DNA from: a virus
Reading direction: 5' to 3' (one strand)
Virus record (IMG/VR): IMGVR_UViG_3300045391_005035
Length of the DNA: 64,000 bases
Shown here: positions 39,238-62,129 of the stretch, one piece after another
How the letters are laid out: every line of letters begins with the position of its first letter
Numbering within the stretch: position 1 is the stretch's first letter
Made by a program: the position numbers and the translations under genes
The notes under the pieces: generated by a model
Seen by the model: only the letters and a program-made list of their open reading frames with translations
Told to the model about the DNA's origin: nothing
The model's database searches: none

Positions 39238-39924
39238 TCATGCGGTGATGCGACTCAGGATTGTCTGGAGGATGCGCTGGTCCATGTTGTAGCCGGAGAA
39301 CTCGGCCGACATCATGCGCACGTCGAACGGCGGCTCGCGCAGGACCTGCACCGTCAGCTCGATCGCGTCGCCGCTCATCGCGTACGAAGCGAACCCTTCG
39401 CCGAGCGGGTTGTTGGTCCCCGAGAACGGGAACGCGGTGCCCTGGCCAGGCACCGGCGGCACGGACAGCCCGGCGGCGCCCTGCGAGGGCTTGTAGTTGA
39501 TGACCTGGCCACGCGCCGTGACGTTCGTGACCATGTCGTACGGCGAGCGGTTGCCTACCTTCACCTCGAAGCCGAAGTAGCTCGCCACGCGCGCCGCCGG
39601 CACCTCGGTGATGTCCTCCACTCCGATGCCGGACTGCTGGTACACCTTGAACCCGAAGTTCTTGATGAGGAACGCCTGGTTCTGCGGCACGACCAGCTTC
39701 ACAACCGGCAGCGGCACCGGGAACGGGGGCAGGTTGCCGACGAATAGCGGCTTCGGATAGTTCCGAAAGAAGATCCTGTTGAGGAAGACGGTCGACTTCG
39801 CTGGCAGGAACTGCCAGAAGCCGTTGACAATCTGCGCGGTGACGACGGGCCTGCTGACCTCTCCTTGAGGGAGAGGCGCCGGCGGCAGGTCCTGCCGAGC
39901 ACCACGTCGCATGGAGCCGTTCAC
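39238..39924 (-). CDS. putative minor capsid (jelly-roll-like) protein
   Basis: beta-rich; VPQNQAFLI..F.F and terminal AEFSGY parallel the candidate MCP; adjacent to it. Confidence 0.4.
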   Translation of the reverse strand: MNGSMRRGARQDLPPAPLPQGEVSRPVVTAQIVNGFWQFLPAKSTVFLNRIFFRNYPKPLFVGNLPPFPVPLPVVKLVVPQNQAFLIKNFGFKVYQQSGIGVEDITEVPAARVASYFGFEVKVGNRSPYDMVTNVTARGQVINYKPSQGAAGLSVPPVPGQGTAFPFSGTNNPLGEGFASYAMSGDAIELTVQVLREPPFDVRMMSAEFSGYNMDQRILQTILSRITA

Positions 39925-39932
39925 GGCCTACC

Positions 39933-40871
39933 TCACGTCGCCGGCGACTGCGCCTGGAGGATCTTGTAGCCGAGCATCGTGAAGTAGAGCGTGCCGCCGA
40001 TCGCGACGACGGCGCGGCCCACGGTCGGATCGTCGCCCGACGGATCGGGCGGCGGCTGCTGCTGACCCTCGGCGAAGCCGTTGGGCAGCTGCGCGTAGTT
40101 GACCTCGGCGAATCCGAGATCGCGCGTGAGCGTCGCCTTGAACTGGATCACCGCGCTCTGCGAGAAGAAGTCCGAGATGGGCAGGTACAGAGGCCGATCG
40201 AACTCGCTGAAGATGTAGCGGCTCGGGATCGGAATCTGGTTCTGCCGGTTGCGGTCCACCGACGCATCGTAGATCTCGAAGAGGAAGTCGGCCTCACCAG
40301 GGCGGAACGTCTGGACCGCCTGCGCGCCCGCGACCGTGATCGGACCCACGCGTGCTCCGATGTACGCGCCCGAGAACGGGTCGGCGGTGCTGGCGACCGG
40401 ACGGAAACGACCAGTGAGCGGCGTGATGACCTCGGTGCCCGCCACCGGGTCGCCCGGACGCCCCTCGTTCTGGCTGCCGTAGGGGCCGACCGAGTACGTC
40501 TTCATCAGCATCGCGCTGAGGTACGTCGTGCAGACGAACGGGCCGTCCTGCGAGATCGGCTGCGTGTCCTGCATCTGCTTGCCGGCGAGCGTCACCGACG
40601 GCTGATCCGGACCCGGGATGTTGATCTGGAAGTTCAGGAAGTAGGGCACCCGCTTGCCGGGGATGTCCTCGATGTAGCGGATGCGCTTCGCTGCCTTCGC
40701 GAGCGAGTCGGCGAGGCGACGCAACTCCAGCTTGTTGTCCGCGAACTCGCCCGCCATCTTGCGGTACGCGCGATGCAGCGCTTCGAGCTGCGTGCGCTGA
40801 CGAAGCTCGCGGTCCTCCATCTGACGGAGGTAGGCGGAGACCTGCGGGTCGCTTACGAACGGGGGCGGCAT
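39933..40871 (-). CDS. putative minor capsid/penton-like protein
   Basis: N-terminal coiled coil then beta-rich domain, ISQDGPFV, PLYLP, terminal LYFTMLGYKI. Confidence 0.45.
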   Translation of the reverse strand: MPPPFVSDPQVSAYLRQMEDRELRQRTQLEALHRAYRKMAGEFADNKLELRRLADSLAKAAKRIRYIEDIPGKRVPYFLNFQINIPGPDQPSVTLAGKQMQDTQPISQDGPFVCTTYLSAMLMKTYSVGPYGSQNEGRPGDPVAGTEVITPLTGRFRPVASTADPFSGAYIGARVGPITVAGAQAVQTFRPGEADFLFEIYDASVDRNRQNQIPIPSRYIFSEFDRPLYLPISDFFSQSAVIQFKATLTRDLGFAEVNYAQLPNGFAEGQQQPPPDPSGDDPTVGRAVVAIGGTLYFTMLGYKILQAQSPAT

Positions 40872-41008
40872 CGTGACCTTCCTCTGCCCGTTGTTCGGGC
40901 GTTGGCTTGGTGTTTCGGCTGTTGGTCGCCGTCTCCGAAATCGAGCTGGTGTTCGATCTCAGAGACCGCGAGGCGGCCCCGCGAAGGGCCGCCCAGCGAT
41001 CGCGTCGC

Positions 41009-60973: not shown

Positions 60974-61590
60974 GGCTGGTCTCCGCCATCCGACCCAGCC
61001 GTCTCGTCGACGTCTGCGGCCTCCTCGCCGACCTCGTCCGCGGCCTGCTCCTCCTCGCCGTCCCCCTCGTCCTCGTCCTCGTCGTCGTCGTCTTCGACGC
61101 TCTGATCGCCCATGAGAGCGGCCACGAGCTGGTTGTAGGCGAGGGCCATCTCGTTGAACTTCGCCTCCGTGTCCTTGTCACTCGGGTACTTCGTTCCGAG
61201 ATGCGAGCCGAGTGCGTAGAGCGCCTGGCCGAGTGCGTTGACCTGATCGGTGCCGACCGCGGCGAACGCTTCACCATCGCTCACTTCGGCGCCGAGCTTG
61301 CGCAGGTGCTTCGCGGTCCACTGCCGCTGCCGCTGAAGCTGCGTCGCATTGCTGACGGCGAGCGTGTGCAAGTCGTACATCGTCGTGCCGAGCATCTCGA
61401 CCGCCTGTACGAAGCGCTCCATCAGCGTCAGCGAGATGAACTTCCTGAGCTGATCCGGATTCGAGAAGCTCTTGTCCTTGAGCAGCTTCTTCTGGTCCGC
61501 CTGGAGCATGTTGAGGAACTGCACCAGTGCCGGCGGCAGCTCGATCTCCATCTCCATGTCGGCCGACTCGCTCTGCGTCTCTTCGCTCAT
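60970..61590 (-). CDS. helical protein with acidic tail
   Basis: GGGAGA RBS; poly-D/E C-terminus. Confidence 0.65.
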   Translation of the reverse strand: MSEETQSESADMEMEIELPPALVQFLNMLQADQKKLLKDKSFSNPDQLRKFISLTLMERFVQAVEMLGTTMYDLHTLAVSNATQLQRQRQWTAKHLRKLGAEVSDGEAFAAVGTDQVNALGQALYALGSHLGTKYPSDKDTEAKFNEMALAYNQLVAALMGDQSVEDDDDEDEDEGDGEEEQAADEVGEEAADVDETAGSDGGDQP

Positions 61591-61601
61591 GTTCGTCTCC
61601 C

Positions 61602-62129
61602 TCAGAGGTCCTTTTCGCCGTGCTCTTGTGCGTATTCGGCCGCCAGCTCCCGCTGACGACGTCGGAAGTTGCGAATCAGATCGCGGCTCGCCACGTCGAT
61701 CGGCCGCCGAGCCGAGCAAGCGAAGACCGCTACCTCACCGATCTCCATCAGCTCCGACGCCGTCGCGAGACGGGTGCAGTAACACCTGATCTGCTTGGGC
61801 TGATCGCCGAAGCCCTTGGTTACGCCTTCGGCCTCGGTGACCCATTCCACGAAGTGCTCGCACGCCGGACGACCCGTCGCCTCGTCTTCGGTGCAAATCA
61901 GGTTGTCCTTGGTGAGCATCAACGCGGGACCGGGCGGCTCGCCGCCGCCGATCATCACGCCACCGTCCGCAGCCGGGACGACCGGCACGTAGCCCGTCTC
62001 GACGTAGTCGGAGGGACGTGTGGCCATCGGCTTCTGACCGGACGTCGACAGATCTCCCGGCTTCTCCGGATCCGTTCCGCCCCAGGACGGCGCCGCCTCG
62101 TCCCCGAAAATGCCACGCTCGCTCGACAT
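61602..62129 (-). CDS. Cys-containing hypothetical protein, first gene of minus-strand block
   Basis: TAGAGT -10-like upstream; C...C.H...CYC...C. Confidence 0.6.
   Translation of the reverse strand: MSSERGIFGDEAAPSWGGTDPEKPGDLSTSGQKPMATRPSDYVETGYVPVVPAADGGVMIGGGEPPGPALMLTKDNLICTEDEATGRPACEHFVEWVTEAEGVTKGFGDQPKQIRCYCTRLATASELMEIGEVAVFACSARRPIDVASRDLIRNFRRRQRELAAEYAQEHGEKDL

What the first reader, a model, noticed from the sequence alone, without database searches (positions are those of the whole stretch)
39238..62129. Probable very large tailless, membrane-containing prokaryotic virus
Seen: a 23-kb co-directional block with three beta-rich capsid-like ORFs, two DNA-condensing proteins, about 20 TM proteins, a PG-binding domain and a TGase-like protease, with no recognisable terminase, portal, HK97 capsid or tail genes. 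Shine-Dalgarno sites, sigma70-like promoters and the PG-binding domain point to a bacterial host. Known: tailless inner-membrane prokaryotic viruses (tectiviruses, corticoviruses, sphaerolipoviruses) have genomes of roughly 10-30 kb. This element spans at least 64 kb and carries a jumbo-phage-like accessory set. Inference: an undescribed large Varidnaviria-like lineage.
Basis: partly seen in the sequence, partly recalled or inferred. Interest (0 to 1): 0.88.

Follow-up and report, generated by a model that had tools for sequence, protein, structure and literature searches.

The report
Giant tailless jelly-roll bacterial virus
This block builds the particle of an uncultured soil virus from an undescribed family with 82-180 kb genomes that most likely wraps its DNA in a membrane and a jelly-roll shell with no tail and no recognisable DNA-packaging motor; its only studied relative is the 44-kb salt-lake phage SSIP-1.

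The parts
41009..41776 (-). Major capsid protein candidate, single jelly roll (255 aa)
39933..40871 (-). Second jelly-roll protein with N-terminal coiled coil (312 aa); second capsid protein or penton/vertex base
39238..39924 (-). Third beta-rich protein (228 aa); probable jelly roll, fold not predicted
   Evidence: HHalign to MCP profile P 0.032 only; 6/9 by HMM; third of a trio as in SSIP-1 gp45-47
41865..41957 (-). Conserved structured RNA in the MCP 5' leader: long P1, small hairpin, P3 whose loop pairs about 85 nt downstream (pseudoknot)
   Evidence: 11 sequences, 89.5% of cells paired, 18 of 26 pairs with two-sided changes, slid controls 39-50%; one copy per genome in this clade; no Rfam match
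41970..42686 (-). Membrane-associated protein with N-terminal Arg tag; paralogous to the C-terminal part of 42733-45024
42733..45024 (-). Lys/Arg-rich core-protein precursor (763 aa) with many xxN junctions, a hydrophobic segment and repeated A-G-M-G / P-L-G motifs
   Evidence: a basic protein lies just upstream of the MCP in all clades
45367..45708 (-). Small N-terminally anchored coiled-coil protein (holin-like in layout; function not tested)
45712..46380 (-). Universal unknown protein; homologous to the C-terminal domain of SSIP-1 structural protein gp43
   Evidence: 9/9; HHalign E 1.6e-4; no PDB or Pfam match
46377..46706 (-). Small conserved tail-anchored protein always next to 45712-46380
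46771..48976 (-). Three soluble proteins, two with xxN junctions; candidate virion cargo
   Evidence: cargo role inferred
49046..53992 (-). Array of ten small tail-anchored membrane proteins, most with a G-L-G motif and an Asn-linked Arg tail; 50426-51004 carries the weak PG-binding domain
54020..54421 (-). Protamine-like protein (133 aa, 45% K+R) with repeated V-S-K-N junctions
54424..57638 (-). Four conserved tail-anchored membrane proteins (468, 238, 250, 105 aa)
   Evidence: 33-59% identity in close relatives
57647..58204 (-). Transglutaminase-like cysteine protease, candidate maturation protease; homologue of SSIP-1 virion protein gp34
   Evidence: invariant C/H/D; 26 of 29 records; only hit among 50,697 phage records is SSIP-1 gp34, HMM E 9e-21
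58275..62129 (-). Head of the module: 107-aa protein, 786-aa coiled-coil/Gln-Pro-rich protein (scaffold candidate, placed like SSIP-1 gp33), acidic 206-aa protein, Cys-rich 175-aa universal protein
   Evidence: the likeness to gp33 is in position and architecture, not significant in sequence
34489..39087 (-). Downstream extension of the module: conserved 310-aa protein, three Arg-tagged proteins, core J-domain protein (34489-35085)
14578..16953 (-). Outlying 791-aa repeat protein, hydrophobic and Arg-tagged at both ends; probable virion membrane protein
20945..22630 (-). HerA-like ATPase; considered and rejected as the packaging motor
   Evidence: DUF87 E 1e-7; absent from G001-G004; DUF87 in 1 of 23 relatives

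Best explanation
The block is the morphogenesis module of a large, probably circular dsDNA bacterial virus (close relatives 153-171 kb) of the SSIP-1/portoglobovirus build. SHOWN: two single jelly-roll proteins; about 18 membrane proteins, mostly tail-anchored; two protamine-like proteins; one conserved Cys-His-Asp protease; two recurrent peptide motifs; no tailed-phage hallmark and no conserved packaging ATPase in complete relatives. INFERRED, in order: (1) the protamine-like proteins condense the genome into a nucleoprotein core; (2) Arg-rich tags joined through [VLMI]-x-x-N tie soluble cargo and the C-terminal tails of membrane proteins to that core; (3) host lipid wraps the core, with the N-terminal domains (wall-binding and wall-cutting) facing outward; (4) 41009-41776 builds the shell, with 39933-40871 and 39238-39924 as second capsid and vertex proteins, and the J-domain and coiled-coil proteins assisting; (5) the protease matures the particle by cutting at G-L/M-G leaders, and possibly at the Asn junctions. 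DNA is thus enclosed by co-assembly, not pumped. Scaling from SSIP-1 (100 nm, 44 kb) and SPV1 (87 nm, 20 kb) suggests a particle of about 150-170 nm.
For: Folds. Synteny and family size. Nine repeat-ended genomes of 82-179 kb. Absences, with positive controls ringing. Core gene set without ATPase. SSIP-1 links. Motifs: GLG 4.7-fold and LGQ 4.9-fold enriched in tail-anchored proteins; Asn enriched at basic tags (P 6e-7), with V/L/M/I three residues before it in 64 of 82 cases against 27% for all Asn. SPV1 has a nucleoprotein core, an inner lipid layer and no packaging ATPase (PMC8459092; PMC8812541).
Confidence: 0.68

Rival explanations
1. Same tailless, membrane-lined jelly-roll virus, but DNA is pumped into a procapsid by a motor I could not recognise (one of the unannotated core proteins) or by a host translocase such as FtsK.
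For: Halopanivirales all carry a packaging ATPase (PMC5332951), and SSIP-1 gp40 is predicted as one. Several universal proteins have no annotation (45712-46380, 61602-62129, 58613-60973).
Against: None of those proteins has a Walker A motif, and every Walker A protein in 11 genomes is patchy or a helicase/MoxR type. gp40 is RecA/RadA-like (AAA_25 E 5e-11) and has no match here. Protamine-like proteins fit co-condensation better.
Confidence: 0.16
2. The virion is enveloped or pleomorphic: the many tail-anchored proteins sit in an outer envelope, and the jelly rolls act as a transient scaffold or as spikes (compare poxvirus D13) rather than a permanent icosahedral shell.
For: Unusually many membrane proteins (14-31 tail-anchored per genome); J-domain chaperone and glycosyltransferases are core; genome size varies twofold around one MCP family.
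Against: The best structural matches are true icosahedral capsid proteins, and the one isolate sharing this module is icosahedral with an inner membrane (PMC6260650).
Confidence: 0.1
3. Not a virus but a plasmid-like extrachromosomal element whose jelly-roll and membrane proteins build another structure.
For: ParB and a tyrosine recombinase are common in the family; two contigs of 106 and 123 kb are binned into bacterial MAGs.
Against: It shares virion genes and order with a real virus; no conjugation genes among the listed families; the MAG assignments span unrelated phyla, as expected of mis-binning.
Confidence: 0.04
4. A tailed phage whose head and tail genes are too diverged to detect; the block is an accessory island.
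For: ESM Atlas taxa labels read 'Uroviricota'; two weak PHROG tail hits.
Against: 0 of 23 for six hallmark families; this block is the most conserved part of the genomes; the labels are automatic and the PHROG hits are low-complexity.
Confidence: 0.02

Closest known systems
[quoted passage not shown]
   Same: TGase-like virion protein gp34 (E 9e-21); gp43 C-terminal domain matches 45712-46380 (E 1.6e-4); order coiled-coil protein, protease, membrane proteins, gp43 domain, gp44-like protein, three beta-rich genes; G-L/M-G motifs in tail-anchored proteins; tyrosine recombinase; MCP model matches BFVD I1ZBH9 and I1ZBI0, whose lengths equal gp46 and gp47 (identification by length and my knowledge of the accession series).
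   Different: Genome 2-4 times larger; no homologue of the gp40 ATPase; protamine-like core proteins and Arg tags; capsid sequences not alignable; soil and other non-hypersaline sources; large replication and accessory gene sets.
Portogloboviridae (SPV1, SPV2)
   Different: Archaeal hosts, about 20 kb; here bacterial and 4-9 times larger, with a conserved protease and about 18 membrane proteins.
Halopanivirales / Singelaviria (P23-77, SH1, HCIV-1, SNJ1)
   Same: Two or more single jelly-roll genes side by side; structural matches to VP17 and HCIV-1 capsid protein.
   Different: No FtsK/HerA packaging ATPase; MCP and second jelly roll can be separated by inserted genes; much larger genomes; heterodimer not shown.
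Double jelly-roll prokaryotic viruses (Tectiviridae, Corticoviridae, Turriviridae)
   Same: Tailless, membrane-lined build (inferred).
   Different: Capsid proteins here are single barrels of 190-310 aa; no A32 ATPase.

Membership tests
SSIP-1-like viruses | Shared virion-module genes in shared order | tested here: met
SSIP-1-like viruses | Capsid protein of the gp46/gp47 fold | tested here: inconclusive
   Foldseek prob 1.0, TM 0.42/0.49, E 0.005 to a 211-aa entry unnamed by the tool; sequence P 0.057
SSIP-1-like viruses | gp40-type ATPase | tested here: not met
   no phmmer or tblastn match in 11 genomes; no AAA_25 over cut-off in the window's clade
SSIP-1-like viruses | Icosahedral particle with internal membrane | not testable with these tools
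   inferred from gene content only
Halopanivirales (Singelaviria) | Single jelly-roll capsid proteins | tested here: met
   (two of three proteins)
Halopanivirales (Singelaviria) | Two MCPs forming heteromeric capsomers | not testable with these tools
   two conserved jelly-roll genes exist; assembly needs a structure of the particle
Halopanivirales (Singelaviria) | FtsK/HerA packaging ATPase | tested here: not met
   FtsK 0/23 over cut-off, DUF87 1/23, no core Walker A protein
Portogloboviridae | SPV1-like single jelly-roll MCP, no packaging ATPase | tested here: met
Portogloboviridae | About 20-kb genome, Sulfolobales host | tested here: not met
   82-179 kb; PG-binding, ThyX and FmdB-type genes point to bacteria
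Portogloboviridae | Nucleoprotein core inside a lipid layer | not testable with these tools
   protamine-like genes are suggestive only
Bamfordvirae (Varidnaviria) | Double jelly-roll MCP | tested here: not met
   models show one barrel; 90-150 residues align to single barrels
Bamfordvirae (Varidnaviria) | A32-like ATPase | tested here: not met
   0 of 5
Caudoviricetes | Large terminase, portal, HK97 capsid, tail | tested here: not met
   0 of 23 relatives for PF03237, PF17289, PF03354, PF04860, PF05065, PF04984; only 64 kb of this genome itself was seen

The most novel reading that the evidence does not exclude
A widespread family- or order-level lineage of bacterial viruses encloses genomes of up to about 180 kb with no packaging motor, by condensing DNA on protamine-like proteins, loading cargo through Arg tags, wrapping a membrane and maturing by proteolysis at Gly motifs, a route resembling that of large eukaryotic DNA viruses but built on single jelly rolls.
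Probability: 0.45. Interest if true: 0.92.

Novelty: new variant of a known kind. Interest (0 to 1): 0.8.

Why it matters
Large bacterial virus genomes are assumed to need a tailed-phage head and terminase; tailless prokaryotic viruses in the papers read here stop at 44 kb. This family reaches about 180 kb, gives the orphan SSIP-1 a large set of relatives, and extends the motor-free portoglobovirus plan to bacteria at four to nine times the genome size. It bears on how single jelly-roll viruses arose and whether packaging ATPases were late additions. Practically, these genomes carry automatic tailed-phage labels and are invisible to terminase and HK97 markers; the MCP and protease profiles here are usable markers. 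The two peptide motifs and one protease make a maturation pathway directly testable in vitro.

Tried and rejected
No whole genome is held for the window, and the 176,411-base contig listed for the identical MCP was not returned; that it is the source is a guess. Pfam and PHROG scans of the capsid genes were blank. HHalign among the three beta-rich proteins showed no significant paralogy. The complex prediction MCP plus 39933-40871 gave no answer and is not used either way. The window's HerA-like ATPase was rejected as motor because it is not conserved. Most AAA_25 hits in distant relatives are DnaB-type helicases; the two strongest (G019, G022) were not characterised. Host: MAG hits scatter over Planctomycetota, Deltaproteobacteria, Acidobacteriota and Pseudomonadota, so no assignment; CRISPR spacers could not be searched. 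Contigs of the most distant small MCP homologues were too short to give context. No RNA holder listed. Nine literature searches found no description of the family; the original SSIP-1 paper is not held, so SSIP-1 facts come from reviews and the GenBank record. The Methylomirabilis phage paper (PMC5099504) concerns 55-nm particles and gave no link. Joints have sides of about 20 letters and were ignored.

Full report
Observation. The window is 66% G+C and about 92% coding. Between 39238 and 62129 all 31 called genes are on the minus strand. The three beta-rich ORFs, two very basic proteins, about 18 membrane proteins, a weak PG-binding domain and a transglutaminase-like protein are all present. 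Sigma70-like promoters are no more frequent than in shuffles. Contigs from three soil metagenomes lay on the block without differences; the best covers it at an even 10-14-fold and may be the source.

Family. The 255-aa protein has 247 homologues in the word-indexed search and 100 clusters at 50% identity. In IMG/VR it marks 34 loci, most on contigs over 80 kb. Nine records end in direct repeats at 82, 94, 104, 112, 125, 144, 160, 162 and 179 kb; the repeats are 33-132 bases, as an assembler leaves on a circular or permuted genome. An MCP tree places the window in a well-supported clade whose complete or near-complete members are 153-171 kb, apart from a larger clade of 90-182 kb contigs and a short-MCP group of 82-104 kb. 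The block is collinear in G001-G004, and the same layout recurs in the distant clades.

What is missing. Across 23 relatives, three terminase families, portal, HK97 capsid and sheath give no match while control genomes ring. Pox_A32 is absent from five, FtsK never passes its cut-off and HerA occurs once. Clustering 11 genomes shows nine families in all nine repeat-ended ones: MCP, second jelly roll, 45712-46380, the protease, 61602-62129, an ART-like protein, two glycosyltransferases and a J-domain protein; the coiled-coil protein and a tyrosine recombinase are in eight. No P-loop protein is universal, and replication genes differ between clades. The window's own HerA-like ATPase is not shared by its closest relatives. 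These tests concern relatives; only 64 kb of this genome was seen.

Closest isolate. In BFVD the best-aligned hit of the MCP model is I1ZBH9 (211 aa, prob 1.0), and I1ZBI0 (256 aa) also appears; SSIP-1 gp46 and gp47 have exactly these lengths. The tool did not name them, so this identification is mine. Independently, the protease's only match among 50,697 phage records is SSIP-1 structural protein gp34 (family HMM E 9e-21), and 45712-46380 matches the end of gp43 (E 1.6e-4). SSIP-1 has the same order and tail-anchored proteins with G-M-G and G-L-G motifs. It is a 100-nm, T=49, 44-kb, unclassified membrane-containing phage (PMC6260650; PMC6356626). Its predicted packaging ATPase gp40 (PMC4124505) is RecA/RadA-like by Pfam and has no counterpart here.

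Motifs and mechanism. Tail-anchored proteins are enriched for MSY starts (10-fold), LGQ (4.9-fold) and GLG (4.7-fold). In this clade 72 Arg/Lys-rich terminal tags were found; Asn is enriched beside them (P 6e-7), and 64 of 82 such Asn have V/L/M/I three residues earlier, against 27% for all Asn. Tags sit on membrane proteins and on soluble proteins inside and outside the block, and the same junction repeats through both protamine-like proteins. With one conserved Cys-His-Asp enzyme this suggests loading by DNA-binding tags and maturation by cleavage; Gly-motif cleavage recalls adenovirus and ASFV proteases (my knowledge, not tested). SPV1 shows that a shell, lipid layer and nucleoprotein core can form without a motor (PMC8459092; PMC8812541). 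I therefore favour co-assembly around a condensed core. Every assembly step is inference.

Host. PG-binding domains, an M23 peptidase in G003, ThyX, RtcB and an FmdB-type zinc ribbon point to bacteria. MAG placements conflict.

Side result. The 193-base leader of the MCP gene holds a conserved RNA structure with strong covariation and a probable pseudoknot and no Rfam match. The structure was drawn from one of the aligned sequences, which favours it over slid controls, but 18 pairs show two-sided changes. Feedback control of capsid translation is my guess.

Novelty. Nine searches found no paper on the family. Reviews give under 20 kb for prokaryotic double jelly-roll viruses and 44 kb for SSIP-1. 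Earlier notes of this scan reached similar readings on other genomes; I read them after making the SSIP-1 link and do not count them as support. The build is a known kind (Singelaviria-like, SSIP-1/SPV1), but membership of Halopanivirales and Portogloboviridae each fails on a defining feature. Verdict: new variant of a known kind, interest 0.8.

Noticed in passing
window 41865-41957 (-): Covarying structured RNA with probable pseudoknot in the MCP leader, one copy per genome in this clade, not in Rfam; a simpler long stem sits at the same place in the distant clade.
   Followed up: partly
L010 9202-10030 (G005): The MCP gene is interrupted after its first 14 codons by an insertion with a LAGLIDADG-like endonuclease ORF and a group I intron-like 3' end.
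   Followed up: partly
G003 65853-67690; L003 11608-14395: A PAPS-reductase/DUF3440 plus ParB pair is inserted between the MCP and the second jelly-roll gene in G003 and L003; G004 has other genes at that place.
   Followed up: no
window 3079-6523 (+): Three-gene unit: kinase-like protein, VWA-like protein and adenylosuccinate-synthetase-like protein; absent from the four closest relatives.
   Followed up: partly
window 17543-18190 (+): The one good sigma70-like site (10 of 12), a terminator-like hairpin, a tRNA-Ile(GAT) call at 17771-17848 and a short ORF shared with G001.
   Followed up: no
window 18386-20340, 29649-32634 (-): ART-like, PcfJ-like and other soluble proteins, some ending in xxN junctions; candidate injected cargo. 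PcfJ-like genes occur up to three times per genome.
   Followed up: partly
G003 5668-14993: Replication region has a primase fragment, a 1121-aa protein with a helicase-like P-loop, an SF2 helicase with an intein-like insertion and a DnaQ-like exonuclease; no DNA polymerase appeared among the 25 families listed (not searched directly). Other clades use DnaB/DnaC.
   Followed up: no
L120 24775-25737: SSIP-1 gp40, cited as a packaging ATPase, scores as RecA/RadA-like (AAA_25, KaiC), not FtsK/HerA/A32.
   Followed up: partly
L068 60-830 and 958-1734; L060 8650-10777: Some relatives carry two tandem MCP-family genes.
   Followed up: no
G005 (297,749 bases): One record is nearly twice the family size with a single protease gene; it may be a larger member or a joined assembly.
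   Followed up: no
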